In this document: piece by piece, positions 18,282 through 58,948 of the stretch
How the letters are laid out: each line of letters begins with the position of its first letter
How positions within the stretch are numbered: position 1 is the first letter of the stretch
DNA from: Ostreococcus lucimarinus
Taxonomy: Eukaryota
Assembly: GCA_000092065.1 (NCBI GenBank)
Contig: CP000600.1
Reading direction: 5' to 3' (one strand)
Length of the DNA stretch: 64,000 nt
Made by a program: the position numbers and the translations under genes
The notes under the pieces: model-generated
What the model was told of the DNA's origin: nothing
The model's input: only the letters and a program-made list of their open reading frames with translations
Database searches by the model: none

Positions 18282-19463
18282 ATGGCGAGCGCGGCGACGC
18301 GAGCGATGGTGAGAAGGATGCGGTCGACGATGGCGACGACGGCGCAGGCGACGCCGTCGATGACGTTGGTCGTCGGAGGCGAACGGGCGACGCGACGGGT
18401 GGCGTGGTGGCTCGGCGGAGGGTGCGCGTGGGTGTTCTCCATGGTCGTCCTGGGAGGGATGACGAGGCTGACGAGGAGCGGATTGTCGATGACGGATTGG
18501 AAGTTTGAGTACGAGCATCCACCGCTCACGGACGAGGATTGGGCGAAAGAGTTTGAAAAGTACAAGCAAAGCCCAGAGTACAAGAAGTCGAACTTGGGGA
18601 TGACGGTGGAGGAGTACAAATTTATTTATTGGATGGAGTACGGGCACCGCATGTGGGGGCGCGTTTTGGGGTTGTACTTCGTCGCCCCGCTCGCGTACTT
18701 TGCGTCGAAAGGGTACGTCACCTCGGCGTTGGCGAAGCGATTGGGAGTCTTCTTCGTTCTCGGCGCGGCGCAAGGCATGATTGGCTGGTGGATGGTGAAG
18801 AGCGGTCTCGAGGAGCAAGAGTTTTCGTACGACGTGCCGCGAGTGAGTCCGTATCGACTCGCCACACACTTGACGGGAGCGTTTACCATTTACACCGGTA
18901 TGCTTTGGACGACTTTGAACGTCATCTATCCCGTTTCGCCGAGTCAAAGCGCTGGAGCGAGCAAGGCGCTCATCGACGCGACGAAGCGTTTGCATCGCGT
19001 GGTGCACCCGCTCGCCGGTCTAATCGGCGTGACGGCCATCTCTGGAGCTTACGTCGCGGGCATGGATGCAGGTCGTGCTTACAACACATTTCCTTTGATG
19101 GGCGGACGCTGGATTCCAGAAGAGTACCTCGACCAGTGGGAGCAGAAAGGCTGGAGAAATTTCTTTGAAAACACCGCCGCGGTGCAGTTTGATCATCGCG
19201 TCCTCGCCTTGACCACCTTGGCGAGCGTATCAGCCGTTTGGCTCGGTCATCGAAATTCTACCGCATTGCATCCGAGAACTAGAATGCTTCTCCACGCCCT
19301 CCTCGCCACGACCGCGGGGCAGGTGACTCTCGGAGTCACCACGCTCCTTCATCATGTGCCCGTCGAGCTCGGCTCGGCGCACCAAGCGGGAGCGTTAACT
19401 CTGTTCACCGTTGTCTTAGCCTTAATGCACTCCTTAAGAGGGCCTAAACGCTTGCGAATTTAG
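18282..19463 (+). CDS. COX15: Heme A synthase COX15 (mitochondrial)
   Basis: WKFEYEHPPLTDEDWAKEFEKYKQSPEYKKSNLGMTVEEYKFIYWMEYGHRMWGRVLGLYF... with multiple TM helices and conserved His. Start placed at MASAATRAMVRRMRST (ATG at 18282). An alternative upstream ATG at 18111 would include the poly-Thr tract. Confidence 0.8.
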   Translation: MASAATRAMVRRMRSTMATTAQATPSMTLVVGGERATRRVAWWLGGGCAWVFSMVVLGGMTRLTRSGLSMTDWKFEYEHPPLTDEDWAKEFEKYKQSPEYKKSNLGMTVEEYKFIYWMEYGHRMWGRVLGLYFVAPLAYFASKGYVTSALAKRLGVFFVLGAAQGMIGWWMVKSGLEEQEFSYDVPRVSPYRLATHLTGAFTIYTGMLWTTLNVIYPVSPSQSAGASKALIDATKRLHRVVHPLAGLIGVTAISGAYVAGMDAGRAYNTFPLMGGRWIPEEYLDQWEQKGWRNFFENTAAVQFDHRVLALTTLASVSAVWLGHRNSTALHPRTRMLLHALLATTAGQVTLGVTTLLHHVPVELGSAHQAGALTLFTVVLALMHSLRGPKRLRI

Positions 19464-21728: not shown

Positions 21729-23903
21729 CTACGTTTGTACGAGAGCGTCCAGAGCTGTGAGGAGCGAGCGAATCTGCACTTTCGGCGCTTGTTCCAATCC
21801 TTTTCTGAATCTCCAGATCAACTTGAGCGCATCGTTGGCGGTATAATTGATCACAATTGGCAGATTTAAAGTTCTGTTACCGCCTTTTAACGATACGACG
21901 AGCGAACCAGGAGATAAAGCCCGAATCGCTGCGCGCGAATTCGGCGCAAACAAGTCCACTGGGACTTCGCGGCCGAGCGCTTCAAGAACCTTTTTCAGCT
22001 CCGATCGAGACAATTCAATTTTCCGCTTCGTGTTCATTAACGGCTCAATGATATGCATGCCATCTTGAGTCAGCATATAAAAGTCATCACGCTCTGATTG
22101 CTCCCAAATCTTGACACCCGACCAAACGCAGCTCATTCGCTTTGCGCCAGGTGAATCTATGCAGTGCTTCTTGACTCCTTCAGCGATATACACGATAGAC
22201 TTCTGTTGATTTGAGCGCGCGTAGAGGCAAGGGGCGATTTTTTCCGAGAATTTATCACCAAGACCAAACTCTTTTGCCAACTTTTTCACCAATGTGCTCG
22301 AAACTTTTGAGTAGACGTGCTTTGGTTCCGTGCGCTCATAAGCGCGGTCGACTTTTTCTGCGGTCGACTCCTTCGCCTGTGGTCCGGGAATCGGCGCCAC
22401 CTTTTTCAATAAGACTGCAAAAAATCCGCCCATGTCTTGTAAGTGAGGTACGAGCCTCATGCAGTGCTGCAATGGGATCGCCGTCGACTTGATGCGTTTT
22501 CCGAGATGGCCCATTCGCGCCAGCGACTGCGCCGGCGGCCACATCGATTTCGCAAACTTTCGCTTCAATCCAATGGGCACGGTCGAAGCTTGACTATCCT
22601 CGTACTTTGGATATTCTACTACGTTCCCTTCGACCATGGTCATCACGTTCCAAGTCGATATTCCCGGTCTGCGCAGTAACTCGGGAATTCGATCAGAAGC
22701 GTCGACAATTTCTAGCGCTCCACCGCACCGTTTGATGAGCTCTGCGACGACAGCCTCGTTTTCCACTGGGTTGAATGAGCACGTACTGTAAACCATATAT
22801 CCACCAACATTAAGGAGTGCCGCGCCACGCTGCGCAATGCGTAGCTGTAGCTTGTGAAGGCCCATGGCGAATTCGGGGCGCCATTCGGACCAAATCTGTG
22901 GGTTTTTCCTAAGCGTTCCGTCACCACTGCACGGAACATCACAAATGATACGATCGTAAGAGCCTTCTGGATATCTTCCTCCGCGTTCAGTCAATGCCTT
23001 ATCGGTGGTAGGTACGTTGATATTTGGATACCATTGAGCTTGGTGCGTCGTCACCATCAAATTCGCAGTGGCGTTGCGAAGCGCTGCACAGCGTCGTACT
23101 AGGAAATAACATCGCATCGGATTAATATCGTTCGCGATGACGCATCCAGACGCCGATCCTTCCTCTCCATTGACGTTGAGTGCCTCAAGTGCCTGCGTAG
23201 TTTTCGATCCAGGACTTGCGCAAAGGTCGAGCACGCGATGGTGCGGCTCGACTTGTAAAATTGCCGCGGGAACCATGGAATCCACCGCCTGTCGAGTGAG
23301 AACGCCGGTATTGTTGCACTTCACCAACCAACGCTGCAAATCTCTCAACATTGGATTTCGAGAGAACTTCAGGCTCATCTTGTCCACGCCGAGCTGCCAT
23401 CCGTCACACCACGGCAGGCGTGTTGGCGGCGGTATCAACCGTCCCCGGTCGTCCCTCGTTTCTCTCGCGTTTTGCAGAAAGTGTTTCGCCACGTTCAGCG
23501 CTTCGCGCACTTCTTCTCGTCTCGACGCCATAACGTTCATCCTAAATGTCACCGGTAAAGGCAATCGAAGGTACCTCAAAAAGTCTCTCCACTCGCCCTC
23601 GTCCACTATGCCCTGTCGTCTGTAGTACGTCTCAAACGACGTCTCCTCGTGCACCGAAAGCGTGCGCGAGAACCAAGGCGCGGACGTCCGCGGAAGCATG
23701 ATCGTTTCTGTCGTCGTCGTCGCCTCGTTCGCGCTGTTTCGTCGCCCAGCGTCATCAGCGTCATCGTCGTTCCTCGTCGCTTTCGCCGCCGCCTCGAGCG
23801 CCCTCGCGCGTTTCCTCGCGCGCACCATGCGCTTCGATCGCGATCGCTTCCCCGACACCGACGCACCGCCGATCGTGTCGTCATTCCACGCGTCGTGCTG
23901 CAT
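21729..23903 (-). CDS. NSUN2: NOL1/NOP2/Sun-family tRNA (cytosine-5)-methyltransferase (NSUN2-like)
   Basis: EGEWRDFLRYLRLPLPVTFRMN...VLDLCASPGSKTTQ...DRIICDVPCSGDGTLRKNPQIW...ALLNVGGYMVYSTCSFNPVENEAV are canonical NSUN motifs, including both catalytic Cys. Start is the first ATG (MQHDAW...). Confidence 0.85.
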   Translation of the reverse strand: MQHDAWNDDTIGGASVSGKRSRSKRMVRARKRARALEAAAKATRNDDDADDAGRRNSANEATTTTETIMLPRTSAPWFSRTLSVHEETSFETYYRRQGIVDEGEWRDFLRYLRLPLPVTFRMNVMASRREEVREALNVAKHFLQNARETRDDRGRLIPPPTRLPWCDGWQLGVDKMSLKFSRNPMLRDLQRWLVKCNNTGVLTRQAVDSMVPAAILQVEPHHRVLDLCASPGSKTTQALEALNVNGEEGSASGCVIANDINPMRCYFLVRRCAALRNATANLMVTTHQAQWYPNINVPTTDKALTERGGRYPEGSYDRIICDVPCSGDGTLRKNPQIWSEWRPEFAMGLHKLQLRIAQRGAALLNVGGYMVYSTCSFNPVENEAVVAELIKRCGGALEIVDASDRIPELLRRPGISTWNVMTMVEGNVVEYPKYEDSQASTVPIGLKRKFAKSMWPPAQSLARMGHLGKRIKSTAIPLQHCMRLVPHLQDMGGFFAVLLKKVAPIPGPQAKESTAEKVDRAYERTEPKHVYSKVSSTLVKKLAKEFGLGDKFSEKIAPCLYARSNQQKSIVYIAEGVKKHCIDSPGAKRMSCVWSGVKIWEQSERDDFYMLTQDGMHIIEPLMNTKRKIELSRSELKKVLEALGREVPVDLFAPNSRAAIRALSPGSLVVSLKGGNRTLNLPIVINYTANDALKLIWRFRKGLEQAPKVQIRSLLTALDALVQT

Positions 23904-24068
23904 CGCGTCGTCGCGCCTCGACGCGTCGACGTCCGCGCGCGCGCGTCTGCAGCGCTCGTCCGCACACGTCGACCGCGGGCGCGGCGAAGCGACGCGAGAG
24001 GCGGCGCGAGCGAGCGCTCGAGCGAGGGCGACGTCGTCAGTCGTCGAATTCTGACGCTCGACCGCGCG

Positions 24069-27000
24069 ATGACGACCGCGAGCCTCGCGTCGCCGCGCGA
24101 CGTCGCGGAGGAGGAGGACCGACGGGACCAACGACCATCGGCGACGAAACGAAGCGATGACGCGGCGTCTACGAGCGAGAACGACGTGCCTGAAGAATAC
24201 GCTGAGAACGCGAGTGCGGTGATACGCGAAACGCTCGATGGCTTCCTCGAGTACGTCGAGACGTGGGCGCAGAAGACGAGGGAGACCGCAGACAACTTGG
24301 GGGAGGAGGGTGTTTCAAATCGCGGGCCGCGCGCGAGCGGGAACGGGGCGAAGGATGCGATCGTCCTGAACGGCGATCCGCGCGAAAATATACGGATTGA
24401 AGATCTCGTCACGTGCGAAAATGCGCTGTTGAGCAAGACGACGATGATTTTAGCGCATTTAGGCGGCGAAGTCGAGCGGTTGAGCGCCGTGGCAGACGAA
24501 ACAATTTATCCGATGCTTACGACTTTCGGCGAGAGAGCGAATGATGCGGACGTGATGTCCGATGCAGAGTTACGAGATGCATTCGTTGGGAAATTAGAGC
24601 CGCTTCAAGACGCACTGTTATTCATGGATCAAGTCAGAGCGGTCGTGTGTAACTTGTTCACGCAACTCACGGTGGTGTATTCGACGTTCGCGGCATACAC
24701 GCCGTATCAAACTGTGCGTTTGGCGTGGTCATTCGATATGCTCGGTCGTGCACTAGCAATTGGAGTCGGAATTGATGAGGTGGTTAGGAACAATAGGGCG
24801 TTGCGGTCGGCGCTGATGAATTTCAAACGCGTGGTGCTGCTCCTTCGAGCCAATCCCGAGCAGTTCGGCATGAACGAAGTCGACGTCGTGAGCTTGGATT
24901 CGGCGGTTGCGATCATCGAAAATCAATTGCTCTCATCTTCATTCTTTGCCTCAGTGCTCACACAGCTCACAGAAACCGAACAACCTGATCGATTTATCAA
25001 GGAGCTCGCCGGCACAACTCTCGAGCTTCTCGAAAGCACGACGGCTCGATTGAATACCGACTCGGAGCGGTTGAACGATAAACGCACACTGCTGTCGTGT
25101 CTTTGCTTGACTATGCTTCATTCAGGATTAGTTCCCGATATAGCCGATAGAAAACTCTGCATGAAGGCGTGGGAAGTCTACAAGGTGTGCGTGCTGGTGT
25201 CGGTGACGACGACGGTTTCAGTGTGTCCAGGGGCAATACTAGAAGCGCATCTATCTCCAGCCGCACGAGAGTGCTTTCCTGATAATGGTTTAGAATCAGT
25301 GATCTCGTTTCGTCGAGAGACGCTCGAGACTCTGGATGAGACTTTCCCTGCGAAGCTCCTCGATTTGTTGTCGGCTTCAGTCGCCTGGCTCACCAAGTTT
25401 ACGGCGACACCAAACGTCTCGCATAGCTTATCGAGCACAATGAACGCTCGCACGAGTTTGTTTCAGGAGGGTATGAGACTGGTAAATCGACTGCGCCACT
25501 ATACTCAGGAGATCATACACCTCCACGTGTCTCTGGAGGCCCCGGTCACGAAGCGGCGGGTGCGACTCATCGCTCGCGCCGTGGAAATGTTGCAAGCCAT
25601 GTGCGAAGCTTTCACTCAAAATCTCAATTTGAGTTTGGAAGTGCAGCACGTGCTGAAATTTCTAGCAGATAGAATACATCGCATGATGGTACGTTTGAAA
25701 CGCTTCTGAGATCGATCGGCTCACATCTGACCTTTTCACGCAGGTTCCTACTCGGGAATTATTAGAAAACAAAATTTCGACGACGACGACGTCGAGTGGA
25801 TGGGAACGCTTAAAGGCTCAAATTTCGTCGGGAAAAGCCGAAAACAATAAACAGGACACCCTCGCGACGGTCAATATCGCAGGTAAGCTTTTCATTCTCC
25901 GTCTAGATGACGTACAAATTAAATTAATTATTTCATTTATTTAGTGCATGTTTTGTCTGGGCCGGCGACTCGAAAAAGGATGCATGTTCTTCGAATCTGC
26001 CTCGATGCGATCCGTGGAGCGAGTCTTCTCAGTGATGAAGATGTCGTGCTCGCATCTGAGTTCGTGGAACTCGTAGAAGTGCTCTCCACGTACCGCAAAA
26101 GCGTTCAAGATCAATGTGATACTTCCTTTTTATTTTTCACGAGGGAATTATTTCCGGTGTGTTTGGCTGATATTTACGTCAAGCCGAACGAATCTGGACG
26201 TCTTACTTTGCTTGTGAGTGCGTTTCGCAATTGTGAAACGTTATTAATGCGTGCTGGAGCGAGCGATAGCGAAGTGGCGACGTTTGACAATTATATTCGA
26301 ACGTCACTGGAGCGAGAAATAATTCAACCGCTTTGTCGAGATATTGAGACAGATTTGAGGTTGCATCTTCATTCTGCGCGCATAGCAGGCGTCATGAACA
26401 CGAATCCGTTCAAGGATGGCGTTCGAGACTTGTCGTTGTTCACGAATCTGCCGCCAATCTACACGTTGAAGCACCAGGTGCGAATATTATTTATTTAATT
26501 AATTGTGGCGAATTTGAAACTGACCGGATTTCGTCCTCGTCGTTGACAGATCGACATTCGTAATCGCGTCGAAGGTTATTTAAATCAGACCTTCCACAAT
26601 CACACGGCGATTGCTCTTCATAACTGGAAGGTGAGTGATAAAATAATTAATTTGTCCTACTTCGCAACCGAGCGAGCTGCCTTTTACGAAAACGACGACT
26701 AACGATCTATTCGCGCGCAGTCTTACGTGGAAATGAGAAATCTTGCGATAGAAAAGTACGGCTTACGCTGCGCCGAGATTGAGCTTCCGAGCCAGACGCT
26801 CGAACAAGGCTTGGATGTGTTGGAGCTGATGCGCAATATCCACGTCTTCGTGTCGAGGTACAACTACAACTTGAACACACAGTGCTTTGTCGAGAAGGCG
26901 AGCGCGGCGCTCGATCGCAAGCATCTGAACACCATAAGTATTCGGCATGTCGCCAACTCTATCAGAACGCACGGAACGGGCATCACGCACACGACCATCA

Positions 27001-27965
27001 ACTTTGCCTATCAGTACCTGGCGCAAAGATTTCAGATTTTCAACCAGTTTCTCTTTGACGACCACATCAGAAGTCAACTCATGAAAGAAGCTCGAATGGT
27101 GCACGCCGAGACAAAGGCTAAGAGTGATACTATCAAGTTAAGCTCAAAGCAAGCAGGATATCGCGCATCGACTGTGGACGAAAAGTTTGAGTACCCAGTC
27201 GAACGCGCCCTTCGAGTGATGCGCGACATTCGAAAGCTCGGTTTATCGAAGGACGGCTCTTCGTTCATCGACGAGTTCCGTGTGTTAGTGACTGAAATCG
27301 GTAATGCGCTCGGTTTTGTTCGCATGGTTCGTCTCGGTGCGATGCACTACAGCACCAACGCCGCCAAGTTTGTACCGAGTGCGCGCGGGTCGAAGTTCGC
27401 CCTCGATGAGAGCCTCGACGCCGACGGTTTGTCCGAGTGGACAAAGACGGCACTGAAAAATCTGCAGAGTGAATTAAAAGCCTTAAGCACAGGCGGTACC
27501 GATGGTACTGACTATTTTCAAGTCCTCGTATCGGTTTTTTCGACCGAGCTTCGAAAGGGTCACGAACACCTAAAAGACTTTTACTTGGTGCTTCCAGCGC
27601 TCACGATGAGCGCCGCTGAAACCATCCTGGCTTCAAAAGACAAGCTCGTGCGACGTGGTAAAGATTCACAGACCGCCACTTTCACCGATGATGGTTTAGC
27701 ACTTGGGATCGTGTACCTGCTGAGCGTCCTCGATCAACACGAAGCCTTCGATGCGCTGCATTGGTTTGAGTCCGCCTCGCACCACTTCGAAGCGGAGGAG
27801 AAGCGCGCAAACGAGGAAACCGGTGGCACTTTCGGCATTTTAGGTCGTAGCATCGACGAAAAGACCAAGCTTCAGGTCAAGTTGGATAAGATTGACGCGT
27901 TAAGGCGCGAGTTTGTACACTTGAAGCATTCACTCGTCGGCGCGCGAAGCTTTGTGAATTTGTAA
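24069..27965 (+). CDS. WASHC5: Strumpellin-like protein (WASH complex subunit 5 homolog), five exons
   Basis: Exons (±1 nt): 24069–25688, 25744–25882, 25945–26477, 26550–26630, 26721–27965, about 1200 aa in total (human strumpellin is 1159). Introns have canonical boundaries (GTACGT..CAG, GTAAGC..TAG, GTGCGA..CAG, GTGAGT..CAG) and are AT-richer than the exons. The segments ...HNWKSYVEMRNLAIEKYGLRCAEIEL... and ...RYNYNLNTQCFVEK... match the human strumpellin region ...[37 protein letters not shown] (my recall of the family). Confidence 0.5.
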
Positions 27966-28124: not shown

Positions 28125-29555
28125 ATGTCGTGCCAAGCGATGTTAAACACGCCCGCGCTCGCGCCGGCGGTGACATCCGTCGCCCACCGTCGCCCTAGCC
28201 GCCGAGGTGCTCGCGCGTTGACGCGCGCCAACGCCGGTGGTGCCATGGAGCAGCTCACGTTGAAGCCGATGAAGAAAATTGAAGGCACGGTTCGATTGCC
28301 GGGGTCTAAGTCGCTGTCAAACCGCATTCTGCTCCTCGCGGCGCTCGCAGAAGGAACGACCAAGGTGGAAAACTTGTTGGATAGCGACGACATTCGTTAC
28401 ATGGTTGACGCGCTTAAAGTTCTGGGGCTGTCCTTCACGGAAGACAGAGAGAACAACATTTTGGAAATCACCGGTTGTGGGGGTAAGCTCCCGGTCGAGG
28501 GCGCGGAGTTGTTCCTCGGTAACGCCGGGACGGCGATGCGACCGCTCACCGCCGCCGTGGCTGCGGCGGGTAAAGGCACGTTCATCCTCGATGGTGTCGA
28601 GCGTATGCGTGAAAGACCAATTCAAGATCTTGTTGATGGTTTGGTTCAGCTTGGTGTCAAGGCGGAGTGCACGATGGGTACGGGTTGCCCGCCGGTGAAG
28701 GTTGAGGCGAACGGCTTGCCTGGCGGTCGCGTCGAGCTCAGCGGTTCCGTGAGCTCGCAATACCTCACCGCGCTCCTCATGGCGGCCCCACTTTGCGAAG
28801 GGTCGATTGAAATCGTAATTGTCGATGAGCTCATCTCCAAACCGTACGTTGAGATGACTATCACACTCATGGAACGCTTCGGTGTCAAGGTAGAAAAGGC
28901 GGACGACCTCCAGAGCTTTAAGATTCAAGGCGGACAAAAGTACATCTCCCCGGGCAGTGCATTTGTTGAAGGCGATGCTTCGTCCGCTTCCTACTTCCTC
29001 GCCGGTGCCACCATCACCGGTGGTACCGTCACTGTCATCGGTTGCGGTTCGGAGAGCATCCAAGGCGACACAAACTTTGCGTACACGATGGAGCAAATGG
29101 GCGCGACGCTCGAGTGGGGTCCGAACTCGGTCACCTGCACCGGTCCCAAGGGCCCGCTCAAGGCGATTGATGTGAACATGAACGCCATGCCCGACGCTGC
29201 GATGACTCTTGCCGTCGCTGCACTCTTCGCTGACGGCATCACTACCATTCGTGATGTCGCGAGCTGGCGCGTGAAGGAAACCGAGCGCATGATTGCGATT
29301 TGCACCGAGCTGCGCAAGCTCGGTTGCGACGTCTTCGAAGGCGCGGATTACTGCGTCATCACCCCTCCTCACAAGCTCGACCCCCCGGCCAAGATGAAGG
29401 CCAACGTTGACATCGATACCTACGACGATCACCGCATGGCCATGGCTTTCGCCTTGGCCGCGTGCGGCGACGTCGACGTCGTCATCAACGACCCGAAGTG
29501 CACGAAGAAGACTTTCCCGACGTACTTTGACGTCCTCAAGTCCGTCGCCAAGTGA
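28125..29555 (+). CDS. aroA: 3-phosphoshikimate 1-carboxyvinyltransferase (EPSP synthase), plastid-targeted, stand-alone (not AROM)
   Basis: [22 protein letters not shown]...[11 protein letters not shown]...DHRMAMAF... are classic EPSPS motifs. A ~40-aa S/A/R-rich N-terminal transit peptide precedes them. Confidence 0.9.
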
Positions 29556-36053: not shown

Positions 36054-36922
36054 TCATTCATCGTCTTCCCACTCGTCGTCGTCTTCCCATTCGTCGTCGT
36101 CGTCGTCTTCCTCTTCTGGAGTAGGGGTCGCCGGTAATCCGCGTTCAGCTTGCGCGACCCTTCTTCGGCGTTCTTCGATCTCTTTTTGCTTACGAGTTCG
36201 CTCCGCGAGCACGCGAGCTTCTTCGTCTTTGATCGCTCTCGCCTCGCGCGCCTCCACCTCGTGCTTGAGTTTAATCACCCCCACGATCCCACCCACGATG
36301 GCGAAGATAAGCCCCAGAGCTTTCTTCAACCCTCCCGCGGCGTCTTTCACGTTATGTTCCTTGAGCATGGCCACCAATTTCGAAGGCAACGCCCCGCTCA
36401 TCTCTTCCAACTTTTCTCCATTCTTGTACAACTGATACGTCGGAAGCGCCTTGACGTTACACTTCTCCGCCACCGCCGGAACGGCTTCGATATCCACCCT
36501 CACGAAGCGTATGCGTTTAAATTCCGCCGTTCTCGCGAGCGTCTGCATGTACGGCGCCATGGATTTACTCGAAGGGCTGTAGTTCTGTTCGTCGAACGCG
36601 CGCGTCGGGCGACCCCCGCGTCCTCGTCAGTCCTCGCGTCCTCGGTCCTCGGTCCTCGGTCCTCGGTCCTCGATCCTCGATCCTCGCCTCGTTTCCCGCG
36701 CGTCCTCGGTCTCGTCCTCGCGACGGTCTCTCGTCGTCGTCGTCCGCGCTTCGCTTCCCGCGGTCTCGACGCGCGCGTCGGACGCACCGAGACGAACTCC
36801 ACGAGCACGAGCTGATCTTTCCTTCGCAGCGCGCGATCGAACGCCGTCGCCGTCGCGAGCGTCTCCACGCGCGAGAACGCCTTCATCTTTCGCGCCCCGC
36901 CGGCGCGTCGTCGCGTCGACAT
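36054..36922 (-). CDS. Thioredoxin-like membrane protein with a degenerate SPSS active site; two exons (36922–36788 and 36584–36054) split by a ~203-nt GC-rich intron
   Basis: Exon 1 reads MSTRRRAGGARKMKAFSRVETLATATAFDRALRRKDQLVLVEFVS and ends at TCG|GTGCGT. Exon 2 starts after ...GAACAG| with NYSPSSKSMAPYMQTLARTAEFKRIRFVRVDIE...KALPTYQLYKNGEKLEE. The joined sequence is colinear with a thioredoxin fold, where W-CGPC-K is replaced by Y-SPSS-K. It continues into one TM helix and an acidic tail. The ORF track shows the two exons as separate ORFs. Confidence 0.55.
36621..36690. repeat. Heptamer tandem repeat (TCCTCGG/TCCTCGA)n, about 9 units, inside the intron of the thioredoxin-like gene
   Basis: Seen directly in the sequence: tcctcggtcctcggtcctcggtcctcggtcctcgatcctcgatcctcg. 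Confidence 0.85.
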
Positions 36923-37091
36923 CCCGCGTCGTCGTCGTCGTCGTCGTCGAGTCGCGCTCTGCGGGTCAGGTTTACGCGCGCGTCGTCGCGCGTCGCTCGG
37001 GACACCGCGACGCGACGCGCGCGCGACGAGCGACGCGCCGCGCGACGAGCGACGACGCGCCGGTCGAGCGTCGAGCTCGACGCGCGCCCGG

Positions 37092-40000
37092 ATGAGCGAC
37101 AGCGAGAGCGATTACAGCGACGACGACGCGCACATCGGCGGCGGCGATCGGGATGCGGAGGAAACGTACGACGGCGCGGGAGGCGAGGCGACGCTGAACG
37201 TGGACGTCGGATCGTCGCTCACGAGCGCGGATTGGGCGGACATCGATAACTCGGACCTCGTGGCCAAGGTGCGCGGGAGCGCGGGGTTTCGAATCATGCG
37301 AGAGATTCAGCCGTGGGACGGGGCGCTGGACGCGCCGCCGGATTTGATGAAACGACACGTGTTTGAATACTTTTACACGCAGCGCAAGGACAGTGACTTT
37401 TATAAAAAGTTGGCCAAGGATTGCTTCCCGAGCGAGTACGAAAGAGCGGGGGCGGATAAATCGGAGAAGAAGCGGTTGGCGAACCTCTGGGCGGGGGCGG
37501 TTTTGGACGAGTTGAAGGCGATGCGAGACGGGGCGAAGCACACCTTGCGATGGATCAACGCCATCAAGGAAGCGCAGGCGGGTGATTTGTTATTTTTAAA
37601 GCGTGAGGCTCTGACTCACGGGCCCGGGAGCGTGCAGGAGATTGCCAGTCAAATTGTTTGGGACAACGTGAGTAATCGCATCAAGGATCAAACCTTTGCG
37701 GCGATGCACGCGTGGACGAACAAATCGGGTGCTCAATCCGGTGGCGTCGCGCGCATGTACAAGCATCAGCACGAACTCATCGATCAACTGGACAAGCACT
37801 ATGCCGCCATCGGGAAAATGCAAGAGGCGAAGAAGCCGTTACCCAAGCCGTTGCACGTCATCTTATCGACGCCGACGGGGTCGGGCAAGACGTTCACCGC
37901 CATTCTCGTTCACCTGCGTCTTTTGAAGGTCAAGTACCCGGACGCTATCTTGCTCTACTCAGTGCCGACGAAACAAGTTTTGAAGCGCGTTGGACAAGAG
38001 TGTGAAGCGCACGCGGTGCCGTACTGGACGGCGGCGCGCGACAACACGGGCGATGGAACGCTTCACCAAGTGCGTCGTCCGTATTCCATTCGTGATAAGG
38101 CTCGAAACAAGAAAGCACTTCGTGCGGCGCGTGCTATCGGTGAAAAGGTCAGCGCTGGTTCCGGTACGATTCAACAACAGCTCGAATACGCCGCAGATGT
38201 GGGTTACAAGCTCAAGGATCACGGCGCTGGTAAACCGGATATCATCATCGCGGATCTCAATACCACGGCGGCGTTGCTCAAAGCCTGCAAGGAAGAAAGC
38301 TCCAGCTCGTTCTACCACGAGTCTAAGATTCTTTTGTACTTTGACGAGCCGAATATGGGTATTCACCTCGATCCGAATGTTTTGGGTGTGGTTTCGTCTA
38401 TCCAGGCCAACATGCCGCTCACCGCCGTACTTGCTTCGGCGACCCTAGGCGCGTGGGAAGGTTTGGAGCCTTGGTGGCGCGGCCCGACCGATGCGAACCA
38501 AATTACTATTAGTTTGGAGCCGTACGAGTTGCCAATGGCGAAGCTCGCCGTTTTCAACGAAGGCACGAGCGAGTTTTCTCCCATGAGTCCGCTCAACTTG
38601 ATTGAAAATTATGCCGAATACCAACGAGTGATGGAGGATTACCGTTTGCCCACGCTTCTGTTGCGTCACTTGACAGCTCGACATGGTAATGATTTATTGC
38701 AGATTCAACCGCCCGGTGGACCTTGGGATAAGGTGCAGGGTGACGTGAAATCGTTGCGTTTGGCAATCGAACCGACGTTTACGAGCCTGTCGCAAAAAGA
38801 ATTTGAACGACTGCAAGGTCGATGGAAGATGGGCGAGGACGCTCCTACCAAGGTCGATGGCATCCGTGGTGCACTCTCAAAAGAGGGCGTCACTATGGTC
38901 GGTTGCTTGGATCCGCGCAAGGTGGCGTTCGAGCTCGCCGGCTTTGCTGACCAGGAGGCTTGGATCCAAGACGTTCATAAATTGAACAACAAGCTCAAGG
39001 AAGCGGAAAGAATGGTAAAAGAGAACGCCAAGGCTGAAAAACGCAAAAAGAAGGATGACGAAGACGAGGCTAAGGATGGTGGCGACGAAGGCGGCGTCGG
39101 AGTCGTGACTCTTCGACCGATGTTAAAGATTAGTCTCGCCGAAGCTCTCGAGGCTGACATCAACACCTTGGTCATGCTTTCTAAGGGTATCGCTTATGCG
39201 TGCGGGTCAGGCACAGAGCCTATGGTGAAACGTCTTTATAACCAAGCGTTGCTCACCGTTCCCGATTCTCTTCGAGGACGATCTCCGCCGCTCAACGTGC
39301 TGGTTGTCGACTACTCGTCCATTTACGGAACGGATTGTCCCGCGGTTGATACTTTGTTGTTGCAAGAGGATTTGGGTCGACTCTTAGCTTGGGAAGATCT
39401 TCAGCAGTTCCTTGGTCGTCTTCGACGCGATGGAACAGCCGTTTTCTACTCCAAGAAAACTCTTCGCCGGGCCGCTCTCGGCGCCGCGGTCGAAGAGGAA
39501 GAGACGACGGCGCTTATTGAATTCCAAAAGCTTGTTGAAAACTCTGTGCTGGATCTCGAAAAGGCTCAAAAACGCGACACCGACAGCGTCACCGCCCTCG
39601 TGACCAAGCTCTCTGCGTCTTCTGGTCGCAGTGCGGGAGAAGTCGCTTCGTACGTGTTGGCGTCTGTTATATCGTTTGCGCTATCTGCTCCGTCTCATCT
39701 CGATGGTGCGGGCGTGTACCCGGCGACCATCCCGGAGAGCGACAAAGAGCTCTTAGCCGCGATCACAAAGCGCGTGGAGGGTTACTCGGACGCATTGGAA
39801 AATGTGTTGAAAAAGATGTCGGAGCAAGTTCGTGCCGTGAGCGCGATCGAAGCCCTCTCGCTCTCTGCGAACCCGTTCGCCAGCCGTACCGGCGGCGCTC
39901 GCGTGCTCGGCATTGCTGCGCAAGTGTTGAAAATGCTGTACGATGCTGATATCCTCTCCGAAGAAGCACTCTTTGCTTGGGCTAATGCGAAGCGCAAAGA

Positions 40001-43914: not shown

Positions 43915-44361
43915 GCCCGACCGCGCGGCAAAAGGAAACGGGGGGGTTCTTCGCTCATCAGTCTGACCGCGCGCCGTCCTCTGTGACTTGGAATGTGACG
44001 ACACAGGGCCTTCATCAAGCTAGCGCGCCGCGCGGCGTCCGAGACGCCGCGTCGTCGCGAAGCGGATTGTCGAGCTCGAGCGCGCGGCCTTCTCGGTCGT
44101 CGTCTGAGGTAAGAAGCTTGTTTTCATTTGGAGAAAACTGATTAGGTGTACGAAATGTAGAATACGATCCTGTATTAGTACAATCGTGATGTGCAGACGC
44201 GAGACCCCCCTGGACGTCGCGCGCGCGCGTCGCGGCGCGCGTTGTTACGGGTCCGCCGACGCGCGACGTTCGGGCGGGCGCGGAACGCGCCGAAAACGCG
44301 TTCTAGGGTTGTGCGCCGCGACACTCGTCGTCGCGCGTCGCCGCGCCGCGATTCGCGATCG

Positions 44362-45087
44362 ATGGCCGCGACGCGCTCGACGCGCGTCGCGCGCGCGCCG
44401 CGCGTCGCGCTCGACGCGCGCGGACGCGCGCGCGCGCGCGTTCGCGCGAATCGCGCGCGAATCGCGCGCGAGGCGAAAAAGGGCGAGGCGGACGACGCCC
44501 CGACGCGGGCGCCGCTGCCGCGGGAGTACGAACACCACAGCCCGGGATCGGTGCAAGAGACGGACGACGCGGTGACGTTCGCGCACGAACGCGCGGAAGA
44601 GCGAGAGAAATGGGCGAAGACGACCGTCGTGCACGTGGGCGAGGGGTCGCGCGAACGCGTGCGCCTCGGCGTGTGCATCGGCGAGTTTCATAATAAACTC
44701 ATGGATCGCATGCTCGAGGACGCGCGCGTGAGCGCGGAGGCGATGGGAGCGACGATCGATAAGGTGGTGTGGGTGCCGGGGACGTACGAAGCGCCGCTGG
44801 TGGTGGAGAATATGTTGCAGGATCCGACGCTGGACGCGTGCGTCGTGTTGGGATACATCGAAAAGGGATCGACGCTGCACGGGCAAGAGATGGGGGCGAC
44901 GTTTTCCATCATCGCGAAGCAATTAGAGTTAGAGTATGGGAAACCGGTGGGAATGGGGATCATCGGACCGGGCGCGACGGCGGAACAGGCGGAGATGCGC
45001 GTGGCGTACGCGGGCAACGCCGTTCGCGCGAGCGTGCGCATGGCGAGAACGTTCGTGCCCGCGGAAGAAGACGTGGAGACGGCGTGA
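44362..45087 (+). CDS. ribH: 6,7-dimethyl-8-ribityllumazine synthase (RibH/RIB4), organelle-targeted
   Basis: RLGVCIGEFHNKLMDRMLEDA...KVVWVPGTYEAPLVVENML...DACVVLGYIEKGSTLHGQEMGATFSIIAKQLELEYGKPVGMGIIGPGATAEQAEMRVAY is colinear with bacterial lumazine synthase (RFGIVVARFN...VWVPGAFEIPL...[20 protein letters not shown]...). Start at the first ATG (MAATRSTRV...). Confidence 0.7.
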   Translation: MAATRSTRVARAPRVALDARGRARARVRANRARIAREAKKGEADDAPTRAPLPREYEHHSPGSVQETDDAVTFAHERAEEREKWAKTTVVHVGEGSRERVRLGVCIGEFHNKLMDRMLEDARVSAEAMGATIDKVVWVPGTYEAPLVVENMLQDPTLDACVVLGYIEKGSTLHGQEMGATFSIIAKQLELEYGKPVGMGIIGPGATAEQAEMRVAYAGNAVRASVRMARTFVPAEEDVETA

Positions 45088-57112: not shown

Positions 57113-58838
57113 ATGCTCGCCAGGCGCGCCCGAAACGTCCGCGCCCTCGCGCACCGCGCGCTGTTCGCGCGCGCGAACGCCTCCGCGGCGTCCGCGGCCG
57201 ACGCGGCGCCGATCTGGACCGGCGACGACGACGATCGGGCGTCGGACGCGACGAACGTTTGGACGCGTCACGGCGCGCCGGAGGCGCGATCGTTCGCGCA
57301 TCGCGGGATATTGGCCGGCGATGACACCAAGGTGAGCGCTCAGCGCGCGCGCGGCGCGGAGGTGGACGAACGAGGCGAGAGGAGGGCGCGCGGAGGCGAG
57401 AAGAGGGCGATCCGCGGGGGGTTTCGAGGACGCGCGAGGCGGGGACGGCGCGAGGCGACGACGCGAGAGAGAGAGCGCGGCGAGGAGAGAGGGATGGTGA
57501 CTGACGATGGAGGCGTGAATGAATTTGTAGGTGACCACGCTCGCGAACGGGCTTCGCGTGGCGACGGAGGCGGTTCCGTACGCGGAGACGGCGACGGTGG
57601 GCGTCTGGATCGACGCCGGGTCTCGATACGAGGACGCGCAGACAAACGGAACGGCGCACTTCCTGGAGCACATGGCGTTTAAGGGCACGAAGACGCGATC
57701 TGCATCGGGATTGGAAGAAGAGATCGAGAACATGGGTGGTCACTTGAACGCGTACACGAGCCGAGAGCAGACGACGTATTACGCCAAGGTTTTCAAAAAG
57801 GACGTCGGCGCGGCGGTGGACATTTTGAGCGACATCTTGCAAAACTCTGCGTTGGAGAACGCGCAAATCGAGCGTGAGCGCGGCGTGATTCTTCGTGAGA
57901 TGGAAGAAGTTGAAAAGGACATCGAAGAAGTGCTCTTCGACCACTTGCATGCGACGGCTTTTCAGCAAACGTCCCTCGGGACGACGATTCTCGGATCGGA
58001 CAAGTGCGTGCGCTCGGTGACGCAAGAAGACTTGCAAACGTACATCAAGACCCACTACACCGCCCCGCGCATGGTCGTTGTTGGCACCGGTGCGGTTGAT
58101 CACGATGAGCTCGTCAAGCTCGCCGAAAAGGCTTTCGCCAGCCTCCCGACGGAGGGTGCGAGCACCAACGCGCTCGTCGCCAAGAACCCGGGACACTTCA
58201 CCGGTAGCGAGGTGCGCATCCGCGATGACGACATGACCACGGTGAACTTCGCCGTGGCGTTCAAGGGCGCGTCTTGGACGTCTCCCGATGCCGTCCCGCT
58301 CATGGTCATGCAAGCCATGCTCGGGAGCTGGGATAAGCAAGCCATCGGCGCGGATGACATGATGTCCCCGCTCGCGCAAGCGTTCTCCGCCAACAAGCTC
58401 GGTAACTCGTTCATGGCGTTCAACACCAACTACGCCGACACCGGTTTGTTCGGTGTGCACGTTTCGAGCGATAACATCGACGGTCTCGACGATACCGCGT
58501 TCGCGGTGATGAGAGAGTTCCAAAACCTCATCTATTGCCCGGAGGAGAATGACTTGTTGCGCGCCAAGGAAGCGCTCAAGTCGTCCTTGTTGTTGCACTC
58601 TGAATCCGGCACCAGCGCGGTGGCGGAAGAAGTTGGTCGTCAACTTTTGACGTACGGCAAACGCATGTCGCGCGCCGAATTGTTCGCGCGCATCGACGAC
58701 GTCAACATCGAAACCGTCAAGTCTGTCGCGTGGAAGTACATTCGCGACCAAGAACTCGCGATCGCCGCCATCGGCCCGACTCAGTTCTTGCCCGACTACC
58801 TGTGGTTCCGCACGTCCACCTACAACAACTTCTATTAG
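57113..58838 (+). CDS. MPPB: Mitochondrial processing peptidase beta subunit (M16), two exons: 57113–57331 and 57531–58838
   Basis: Exon 1 MLARRARNVRALAHRALFARANASAASAADAAPIWTG...RGILAGDDTK is presequence-like and ends at AAG|GTGAGC. The 199-nt intron ends ...tttgtag|. Exon 2 begins VTTLANGLRVATEAVPYAETATVGVWIDAGSRYE...HFLEHMAFKGT (inverted zinc motif HxxEH). Phase 0 on both sides. The junction recreates the conserved ...TxVTTLxNGLRVAxE N-terminus. Confidence 0.8.
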
Positions 58839-58948
58839 CTTTAAAGCGACTTTTTAATCGACGTCAAACACATGTATAGCTACTCGGCGACCCACCGCGT
58901 ATTTTCTTTTCGCTACGAATATGATTACAACTAGGGCGAACTACGTCG

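What the first reader, a model, noticed from the sequence alone, without database searches (positions are those of the whole stretch)
24069..27965. Strumpellin (WASH complex) homolog as a five-exon gene with AT-rich canonical introns in an otherwise almost intron-free region
Three separate track ORFs (23649–25709, 25944–26498, 26727–27965) plus two short unlisted exons join in frame through four introns with textbook splice sites (GTACGT, GTAAGC, GTGCGA, GTGAGT; ..CAG/..TAG). The ~1200-aa product has blocks resembling strumpellin (YVEMRNLAIEKYGL / NYNLNTQCF). The WASH complex is generally reported absent from land plants. A green-lineage alga keeping strumpellin would be phylogenetically informative. 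These introns are also markedly AT-richer than the flanking exons, unlike the GC-rich introns elsewhere in the window.
Basis: partly seen in the sequence, partly recalled or inferred. Interest (0 to 1): 0.65.

Follow-up and report, generated by a model that had tools for sequence, protein, structure and literature searches.

The report
Ostreococcus SWIP gene, not strumpellin
The five-exon gene is real, but it encodes SWIP (WASH complex subunit 4), not strumpellin, in the tiny green alga Ostreococcus lucimarinus, a genus where the WASH actin machinery was already reported in 2012, so the finding is ordinary.

Summary
Exons 24069-25688, 25744-25882, 25945-26477, 26550-26630 and 26721-27965 join in frame through four GT..AG introns of 55, 62, 72 and 90 nt to give a 1205-aa protein.

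The name is wrong. Pfam finds no strumpellin domain. It finds the three SWIP/WASHC4 domains end to end (E 6e-69, 3.6e-124, 6e-42), each running unbroken across the splice junctions.

The window is Ostreococcus lucimarinus: the neighbouring EPSP synthase is 436/436 identical to XP_001422572.1.

- **Gene model.** All four introns sit at the same places in three other Ostreococcus lineages, and two of those genes were spliced in silico to intact ORFs. dN/dS is 0.08. A Mantoniella antarctica transcript-derived protein is collinear over all four junctions. That gene has introns at the positions of window introns 1, 3 and 4.
- **Prior knowledge.** WASH and Arp2/3 were reported in Ostreococcus in 2012. 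Public pipelines already label these ORFs 'WASH complex subunit 7'. This is known biology with one subunit mislabelled.
- **Not tested.** Whether Ostreococcus has strumpellin, FAM21 and CCDC53.
- **Unexplained.** Conserved A/T-only blocks with an AATTAATTA core lie in introns 2-4 and nowhere else in the 64 kb.

The parts
23904..24068 (.). 165-bp spacer shared with the divergently transcribed NSUN2-like methyltransferase gene (21729-23903, minus strand). Presumed bidirectional promoter.
   Evidence: ORF map and called genes. 24069 is the first in-frame ATG of ORF 23649-25709. Promoter function is inferred.
24069..25688 (+). Exon 1 (540 codons): variable N-terminus and most of the WASH-4_N domain.
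   Evidence: Environmental gene callers start at the same ATG. The conserved sequence begins around PEEY in the orthologues.
25689..25743 (+). Intron 1: 55 nt, GTACGT..CAG, CTGAC branch-like motif, GC 0.49, phase 0.
   Evidence: The position is kept in L005, L006 and L008, and at the same codon in Mantoniella. An in-frame stop at 25707-25709 ends the unspliced ORF.
25744..25882 (+). Exon 2 (139 nt): end of WASH-4_N, including an insert of about 19 aa with a GW.R motif that is shared with Mantoniella.
   Evidence: The invariant residues P542 and D578 lie in this exon.
25883..25944 (+). Intron 2: 62 nt, GTAAGC..TAG, GC 0.26, phase 1, no clear CTGAC motif. It resembles the short AT-rich 'BOC1' intron type.
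   Evidence: The position is kept in four Ostreococcus lineages. Mantoniella's nearest intron lies 12 codons downstream. The residue spacing D..L..LSGP..R matches other eukaryotes exactly.
25916..25933 (.). A/T-only block 1 (AAATTAAATTAATTATTT). The conserved A/T-rich stretch continues to the 3' splice site of intron 2.
   Evidence: column identity 0.78 in the block against 0.36 in the rest of the intron.
25945..26477 (+). Exon 3 (533 nt): start of the WASH-7_mid domain.
26478..26549 (+). Intron 3: 72 nt, GTGCGA..CAG, ACTGACC branch-like motif, GC 0.375, phase 0.
   Evidence: An intron at the same codon and phase in Mantoniella is shown to be spliced by comparing transcript with genome.
26483..26504 (.). 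A/T-only block 2 (AATATTATTTATTTAATTAATT), directly after the donor of intron 3. It holds the window's only TTAATTAA and the in-frame TAA that ends ORF 25944-26498.
26550..26630 (+). Exon 4 (27 codons): IDIRNRVEGYLNQTFHNHTAIALHNWK.
   Evidence: D766, Y774, L775, F779, W790 invariant. Present in Mantoniella mRNA.
26631..26720 (+). Intron 4: 90 nt, GTGAGT..CAG, GACTAACG branch-like motif, GC 0.44, phase 0.
   Evidence: Both spliced and intron-retained isoforms of the homologous Mantoniella intron are seen in MMETSP transcripts.
26638..26653 (.). A/T-only block 3 (ATAAAATAATTAATTT), directly after the donor of intron 4.
   Evidence: It is degenerate in lineage L006.
26721..27965 (+). Exon 5 (414 codons plus TAA): rest of WASH-7_mid and all of WASH-7_C.
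   Evidence: It is 46-53% identical to SWIP of animals, Fabomonas and Rhodelphis.

Best explanation
The locus is the single-copy Ostreococcus lucimarinus orthologue of SWIP (WASHC4, KIAA1033, formerly 'WASH complex subunit 7'). It is expressed from a five-exon gene with four short spliceosomal introns.

What is shown: the exon structure, the domain content, orthology, and strong purifying selection.

What is inferred from established knowledge of the WASH complex (Derivery 2009, Jia 2010, Dostal 2023): the protein is the large alpha-helical scaffold that pairs with strumpellin. Together with FAM21 and CCDC53 it holds WASH1 in a regulated pentamer on endosomal membranes. There, WASH1's VCA tail activates Arp2/3 to build the branched-actin patches needed for retromer/retriever-type cargo sorting.
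For: - Pfam: WASH-4_N covers residues 66-647, WASH-7_mid 648-1011 and WASH-7_C 1032-1202, at 233, 415 and 144 bits against cut-offs of 25.
- Homologues: an exhaustive HMMER search found 1317 at E<=0.001. Named hits in the word-indexed search are WASH complex subunit 4/7.
- Collinearity: the model aligns without breaks at any junction to transcript-derived full-length SWIPs. It also aligns to the 1205-aa Mantoniella antarctica protein, 43% identity over residues 62-1202.
- Intron conservation: all four introns keep their position, GT..AG ends and branch-like motifs in three other Ostreococcus lineages, while their lengths differ by indels that are not multiples of three.
- Orthologue integrity: the spliced orthologues are intact at 1201 and 1190 aa. 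dN/dS is 0.084 with dS 2.2, and differences by codon position are 246/182/618.
- Population: the window differs from four environmental contigs at 3 sites in the gene, all synonymous.
- Transcript evidence in a relative: removing two GT..AG introns at the positions of window introns 3 and 4 from Mantoniella genomic DNA reproduces an MMETSP transcript protein at 280/282.
- Organism: the neighbouring EPSP synthase is 436/436 identical to O. lucimarinus XP_001422572.1.
- Literature: WASH and Arp2/3 are reported in Ostreococcus (PMC3298513).
Against: - No RNA evidence from O. lucimarinus itself was available.
- The exact 1205-aa product is not in the 15-billion-protein collection, so no public model matches mine residue for residue.
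- The start codon is not independently supported, because the N-termini of the orthologues diverge.
- Strumpellin, FAM21 and CCDC53 were not found or sought successfully in Ostreococcus. My one attempt returned only mammals.
- The endosomal function is inference by homology. No solved SWIP structure exists to compare by sequence.
Confidence: 0.93

Rival explanations
1. One reading: the gene encodes strumpellin (WASHC5).
For: It belongs to the same complex, has a similar size (about 1200 aa) and is all-helical, so it is easy to confuse from memory.
Against: There is no PF10266 match at E<=0.01, while three SWIP domains score 144-415 bits. BLASTP against a probe that itself scores 1676 bits on PF10266 gives a best E of 2.1. 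All named homologues are WASHC4 / 'subunit 7'.
Confidence: 0.01
2. Three separate genes or decaying pseudogene fragments, as prokaryote-style gene callers split it (546, 172 and 410 aa).
For: Metagenome annotations list three ORFs. Unspliced reading stops inside introns 1 and 3.
Against: The pieces are consecutive parts of one protein family and are collinear with full-length relatives. Two short coding exons fill the gaps exactly. dN/dS is 0.08, and in-silico splicing leaves the frame intact in two other Ostreococcus lineages. Population differences are all synonymous.
Confidence: 0.02
3. SWIP is kept, but not as part of a canonical five-subunit WASH complex. For example, it could work only with strumpellin, or in another membrane-trafficking role, in a cell with a very reduced endomembrane system.
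For: The other three or four subunits were not checked here. Related genera (Micromonas) are reported to have lost Arp2/3 and WASH altogether. SWIP can bind membranes independently of retromer (bioRxiv 10.1101/2022.08.16.504073).
Against: WASH1 and Arp2/3 are reported in Ostreococcus. Strong purifying selection acts over the whole length, including the C-terminal domain. From general knowledge, SWIP is unstable without its partners in every system studied.
Confidence: 0.1
4. The gene model is right in outline but differs in detail: another start codon, or regulated retention of an intron giving other isoforms.
For: The N-termini diverge between lineages. In another Ostreococcus lineage intron 4 is 90 nt, in frame and free of stops (P0063). 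Mantoniella transcripts include intron-retained forms.
Against: 24069 is the first in-frame ATG and lies 165 bp from the neighbouring gene. In this window every intron, if retained, meets a stop or shifts the frame.
Confidence: 0.15

Closest known systems
SWIP / WASHC4 / KIAA1033 of animals, amoebae and other protists (Pfam PF14745 + PF14744 + PF14746)
   Same: It has the same three domains in the same order, at a similar total length (1205 aa against about 1100-1200). Identity is 30-34% over the full length, and 46-53% in the C-terminal 414 aa. Dozens of residues are invariant, including the YxEMR..A..K.GL and NxxxxxF blocks.
   Different: It has inserts specific to this algal order: about 19 aa in exon 2 and about 19 aa in exon 5. 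The N-terminus is acidic and divergent. No biochemical data exist for any green-lineage SWIP.
Mantoniella antarctica SWIP (EukProt EP00740 P018191, from MMETSP1468 transcripts)
   Same: Same order of green algae. It is also 1205 aa, 43% identical, and shares the exon-2 insert. It has introns at the same codon and phase as window introns 1, 3 and 4.
   Different: The Mantoniella gene has 9 introns of 68-181 nt with no A/T-only blocks. Its second intron lies 12 codons downstream of window intron 2.
Strumpellin / WASHC5 (PF10266)
   Same: It is a partner subunit in the same complex, with similar size and helical character.
   Different: There is no detectable sequence similarity. It is a different protein family.
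BOC1 introns of Mamiellophyceae (short, AT-rich, no branch motif; PMC3879977, PMC3491373)
   Same: Introns 2 and 3 meet the published size and GC limits: 62 nt at 26% GC and 72 nt at 37.5% GC. Intron 2 has no clear branch motif.
   Different: The gene lies among high-GC single-exon genes, on a contig or chromosome of about 549 kb, not in a long low-GC tract. Introns 1, 3 and 4 have CTGAC/CTAAC branch-like motifs, as canonical introns do. BOC1 introns are described as lacking any conserved motif, whereas these carry a conserved AATTAATTA block.

Membership tests
SWIP / WASHC4 | N-terminal domain PF14745 (WASH-4_N) above the Pfam gathering score | tested here: met
   233.5 bits against a cut-off of 25; residues 66-647 cover profile positions 7-572 of 572.
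SWIP / WASHC4 | Central domain PF14744 (WASH-7_mid) above the gathering score | tested here: met
   414.8 bits; residues 648-1011 cover profile positions 1-343 of 346.
SWIP / WASHC4 | C-terminal domain PF14746 (WASH-7_C) above the gathering score | tested here: met
   143.7 bits; residues 1032-1202 cover profile positions 1-173 of 175.
SWIP / WASHC4 | Full-length collinearity with recognised SWIP proteins | tested here: met
   Alignment A1 with six full-length relatives. BLASTP to Mantoniella P0460 covers residues 62-1202. Named hits are WASH complex subunit 4/7.
SWIP / WASHC4 | Co-occurrence with the other WASH subunits (WASH1, FAM21, CCDC53, strumpellin) and with Arp2/3 in the same genome | tested here: inconclusive
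   WASH1 and Arp2/3 in Ostreococcus rest on the literature only (PMC3298513). My strumpellin search returned only mammals. There is no strumpellin in this window. FAM21 and CCDC53 were not sought.
SWIP / WASHC4 | Physical assembly into the pentamer and endosomal localisation | not testable with these tools
   Needs co-purification and imaging.
Strumpellin / WASHC5 | Match to Pfam PF10266 | tested here: not met
   No match at E<=0.01. A true strumpellin probe scores 1676 bits on the same model. The pairwise BLASTP best E is 2.1.
Canonical spliceosomal introns of Mamiellophyceae | GT..AG ends with a GTGCGT-like donor | tested here: met
   GTACGT, GTAAGC, GTGCGA and GTGAGT with CAG/TAG. GT is kept in all four lineages, with one acceptor reading AAG in L008 intron 3.
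Canonical spliceosomal introns of Mamiellophyceae | CTGAC-type branch motif upstream of the acceptor | tested here: inconclusive
   Present and conserved in introns 1, 3 and 4. Not evident in intron 2.
Canonical spliceosomal introns of Mamiellophyceae | Removal from mRNA | not testable with these tools
   No O. lucimarinus transcripts were available. The evidence is indirect: Mantoniella introns at the positions of window introns 3 and 4 are spliced in MMETSP transcripts, and all four junctions are collinear with Mantoniella mRNA-derived protein.
BOC1 introns | Length under 75 nt and GC under 43% | tested here: inconclusive
   Met by introns 2 and 3. Not met by intron 1 (GC 0.49) or intron 4 (90 nt, GC 0.44).
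BOC1 introns | Location in the low-GC BOC1 region of the big outlier chromosome | tested here: not met
   The window mean GC is about 0.60 with single-exon neighbours. The largest record carrying the neighbouring RefSeq protein is 549 kb. The chromosome itself was not identified directly.

The most novel reading that the evidence does not exclude
The A/T-only AATTAATTA blocks in introns 2-4 could be a functional, gene-specific cis element that has not been described in Ostreococcus. For example, they could be a binding site controlling splicing or intron retention of SWIP, or a palindromic DNA site for a transcription factor housed in introns because intergenic space is so short. They would then be more than a by-product of AT-rich intron definition.
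Probability: 0.25. Interest if true: 0.4.

Novelty: already known. Interest (0 to 1): 0.15.

Why it matters
It matters little. The result corrects a name (SWIP, not strumpellin) and supplies a well-supported five-exon model for a gene that prokaryote-style callers split into three ORFs. It adds a second WASH-complex subunit to the published report of WASH1 in Ostreococcus. That supports the view that this very small photosynthetic eukaryote keeps endosomal Arp2/3 regulation that angiosperms and Micromonas have lost. The conserved intronic A/T blocks are the only element that might repay further work. Gene targeting in O. tauri (my recollection, not checked here) would make them testable.

Tried and rejected
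- **Full-length homologue search.** Searching with the 1205-aa model returned nothing at E<=1e-10, although its own exon-5 part finds 282 relatives. I treat this as a tool quirk with the long pasted query.
- **Solved structures.** No relative was found by sequence.
- **Strumpellin in Ostreococcus.** I spent the last homologue search on a human-like WASHC5 probe. All 120 listed hits were mammals, so this gave no information and wasted a search.
- **Derivery & Gautreau 2010.** This survey of WASH-complex conservation is not held in the library.
- **Longer proteins clustered with the exon-3 ORF.** I hoped they were spliced transcripts. They are unspliced exon-1 fragments ending in intron 1.
- **Regex and ORF-based splice scan of the window.** It produced mostly false positives in this GC-rich DNA.
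- **Two candidate introns elsewhere.** The gap 58838-58921 and the A/T run at 18618 are not introns.
- **BOC1 origin of the gene.** Rejected on context, but not proven by a chromosome assignment.
Full report
**What is there**

Reading the DNA and joining 24069-25688, 25744-25882, 25945-26477, 26550-26630 and 26721-27965 gives 3618 nt. This translates to 1205 aa with only the terminal stop.

| Intron | Length (nt) | Ends | GC |
|---|---|---|---|
| 1 | 55 | GTACGT..CAG | 0.49 |
| 2 | 62 | GTAAGC..TAG | 0.26 |
| 3 | 72 | GTGCGA..CAG | 0.375 |
| 4 | 90 | GTGAGT..CAG | 0.44 |

Exon GC is 0.54, 0.47, 0.47, 0.43 and 0.51. The coordinates and splice sites are therefore exactly as reported. The 'markedly AT-richer' description fits introns 2 and 3 only. 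24069 is the first in-frame ATG. It lies 165 bp from the start of a divergently oriented NSUN2-like methyltransferase gene.

**What it encodes**

Pfam finds no strumpellin domain. It finds three domains:

| Domain | Residues | E-value |
|---|---|---|
| WASH-4_N | 66-647 | 6e-69 |
| WASH-7_mid | 648-1011 | 3.6e-124 |
| WASH-7_C | 1032-1202 | 6.2e-42 |

This is the architecture of SWIP / WASHC4 / KIAA1033, formerly called 'WASH complex subunit 7'.

I tested the strumpellin idea directly. I used a human-like WASHC5 sequence written from memory and validated it first. It scores 1676 bits on PF10266 and is 99% identical to primate WASHC5. BLASTP of this probe against the 1205-aa product gives a best E of 2.1. 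The probe has no tblastn hit of note in the window.

**Which organism**

The neighbouring EPSP synthase ORF (28125-29555) is 436/436 identical to Ostreococcus lucimarinus CCE9901 XP_001422572.1. Four environmental contigs, three of them Tara Oceans assemblies, are 98.8-99.6% identical to the window over 21 kb. The window is a run of about 43 back-to-back single-ORF genes. That fits an intron-poor Mamiellophyceae chromosome.

**Is the gene model right?**

Four lines of evidence agree.

- *Domain continuity.* The Pfam matches run unbroken through all four junctions.
- *Collinearity with relatives.* The spliced protein aligns without breaks to transcript-derived full-length SWIPs from Fabomonas, Rhodelphis, Dracoamoeba and others. 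Invariant residues flank each junction: P542, D578, D766, W790 and Y793.
- *Conservation in other Ostreococcus.*
  - I fetched orthologous loci from three other lineages at 68-71% DNA identity.
  - All four introns sit at the same positions, with GT..AG and the CTGAC/CTAAC motifs kept. Intron lengths differ by indels that are not multiples of three, and the exons are gap-free.
  - Splicing the orthologues at these positions gives intact proteins of 1201 and 1190 aa.
  - Window against L005 gives dN 0.186, dS 2.2 and dN/dS 0.084, with 246/182/618 differences at codon positions 1/2/3.
  - Within the species, the gene differs from the four environmental contigs at three sites, all synonymous. The introns are identical.
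- *Transcript evidence from a relative.*
  - A cluster of MMETSP1468 transcripts belongs to Mantoniella antarctica (EukProt EP00740).
  - Removing two GT..AG introns of 102 and 116 nt from its genomic locus L010, at the positions of window introns 3 and 4, reproduces transcript protein P0332 at 280/282 residues.
  - The full-length Mantoniella protein (P0460, also 1205 aa) aligns to my model over residues 62-1202. This includes exon 2 with its order-specific insert and exon 4.
  - Mapping P0460 onto L010 shows 9 introns in Mantoniella. Its introns 1, 4 and 5 coincide in codon and phase with window introns 1, 3 and 4. Its intron 2 lies 12 codons downstream of window intron 2.

No RNA from O. 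lucimarinus itself was available. The exact 1205-aa sequence is not in the public protein collection.

**How it most likely works**

Shown here: a conserved, selected, full-length SWIP orthologue.

Inferred from established work on the WASH complex (Derivery et al. 2009, Jia et al. 2010, and Dostal et al. 2023, whose preprint was seen):

- SWIP is the large helical scaffold that pairs with strumpellin.
- With FAM21 and CCDC53 it holds WASH1 in a regulated pentamer on endosomes.
- WASH1 then activates Arp2/3 to make branched actin for cargo retrieval.

Kollmar et al. 2012 report WASH1 and Arp2/3 in Ostreococcus species, but not in Micromonas or Chlorella (PMC3298513). A working complex in Ostreococcus is therefore likely. 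Strumpellin, FAM21 and CCDC53 were not examined successfully here.

**Comparison with what is known, and novelty**

The premise that WASH is absent from the plant lineage is only partly true.

- WASH was reported in 2012 in Ostreococcus, Physcomitrella, Selaginella and conifers, with loss in eudicots.
- A 2024 review states that it is absent from seed plants (PMC11397296).
- My searches include a Taxus chinensis SWIP fragment, KAH9317641.1.
- JGI/IMG and Tara annotations already name the ORF fragments of this very gene 'WASH complex subunit 7'.
- No paper in the searchable library pairs Ostreococcus with strumpellin, KIAA1033, WASHC4, WASHC5 or FAM21. Kollmar 2012 mentions SWIP only as background. 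The explicit statement may therefore be unpublished, but it follows directly from public data.

I rate this as already known, with a useful correction of the subunit name and of the exon structure.

**An unexplained detail**

The three longest A/T-only runs in the whole 64 kb are 18, 22 and 16 nt long. They lie in introns 2, 3 and 4 of this gene.

- The pattern AATTAATTAWTT, allowing one mismatch, occurs at just these three sites, against 0.13 expected.
- The blocks abut a splice site: the 3' site in intron 2 and the donor in introns 3 and 4.
- They are kept in the other Ostreococcus lineages even though synonymous sites are saturated.

| Columns compared across the four lineages | Pairwise identity |
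|---|---|
| A/T blocks (introns 2, 3, 4) | 0.78, 0.73, 0.64 |
| Rest of those introns | 0.36-0.43 |
| Third codon positions | 0.49 |
| First and second codon positions | 0.78 |

One caveat applies: low-complexity A/T sequence aligns easily, so these figures partly reflect conserved composition.

The blocks are absent from the homologous Mantoniella introns. No paper was found for this motif in Ostreococcus. Introns 2 and 3 fit the published size and GC definition of BOC1 introns. However, the gene is not in a low-GC tract, and BOC1 introns are described as having no conserved motif. I could not distinguish between a splicing-definition signal, a regulatory site and an all-frame stop trap.

**Verdict**

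The gene is real and correctly delimited, the subunit name is wrong, and the biology is already known. Interest is low.

Noticed in passing
window 25916-25933, 26483-26504, 26638-26653: A/T-only blocks with an AATTAATTA core lie in introns 2-4 of the SWIP gene. They are the three longest A/T runs in 64 kb and the only matches to AATTAATTAWTT. They are conserved in three other Ostreococcus lineages despite saturated synonymous sites, and are absent from the homologous Mantoniella introns. Their function is unknown.
   Followed up: partly
window 28125-29555: The EPSP synthase ORF is 476 aa, but RefSeq XP_001422572.1 starts at Met41 (436 aa). The extra 40 residues ([40 protein letters not shown]) look like a plastid transit peptide. 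Orthologous ORFs in other Ostreococcus lineages are also 472-474 aa, so the public model may be truncated at the N-terminus.
   Followed up: partly
P0063 (another Ostreococcus lineage; no window coordinates): In this lineage the counterpart of intron 4 is 90 nt, in frame and free of stop codons. A gene caller read straight through it, adding 30 residues. Retention there would not trigger a premature stop, unlike in the window.
   Followed up: no
L010 420-5080 (Mantoniella antarctica): The Mantoniella SWIP gene has 9 introns against 4 in Ostreococcus. MMETSP transcripts include intron-retained isoforms (P0331/P0298) and a 33-aa in-frame insert in P0460 that looks like a retained intron.
   Followed up: partly
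window 24069-27965, compared with the whole window: The SWIP exons have the lowest third-position GC in the window (0.47-0.62, against mostly 0.65-0.83). Other long genes are also low (847, 724, 1085, 1005 and 975 aa: 0.575-0.637). GC in 1-kb windows swings from 0.47 to 0.73.
   Followed up: no
window 36957-37222 (minus strand) and 44109-44178 (plus strand): A crude scan suggests two possible further introns. One is GC-rich (GC 0.73-0.75, ending ..CCTGACCCGCAG) upstream of the small gene at 36054-36560. The other is short and AT-rich (70 nt, GC 0.34) upstream of the gene at 44362-45087. Neither was verified.
   Followed up: no
window 21729-43000 (via L001-L004): Neighbouring genes, in locus order from precomputed Pfam hits: COX15, Rad4, RanBP1, NSUN2-like methyltransferase, SWIP, EPSP synthase, Tim10, an AP2-domain protein (faint hit), SfsA, Maf, ArfGAP, and a protein with a W2 domain. 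Gene order around SWIP is kept in the other Ostreococcus lineages.
   Followed up: no
tool behaviour: The word-indexed homologue search returned no hit for the pasted 1205-aa protein, yet found 282 relatives for its last 410 residues. A negative result from that tool with long pasted queries should not be trusted.
   Followed up: partly
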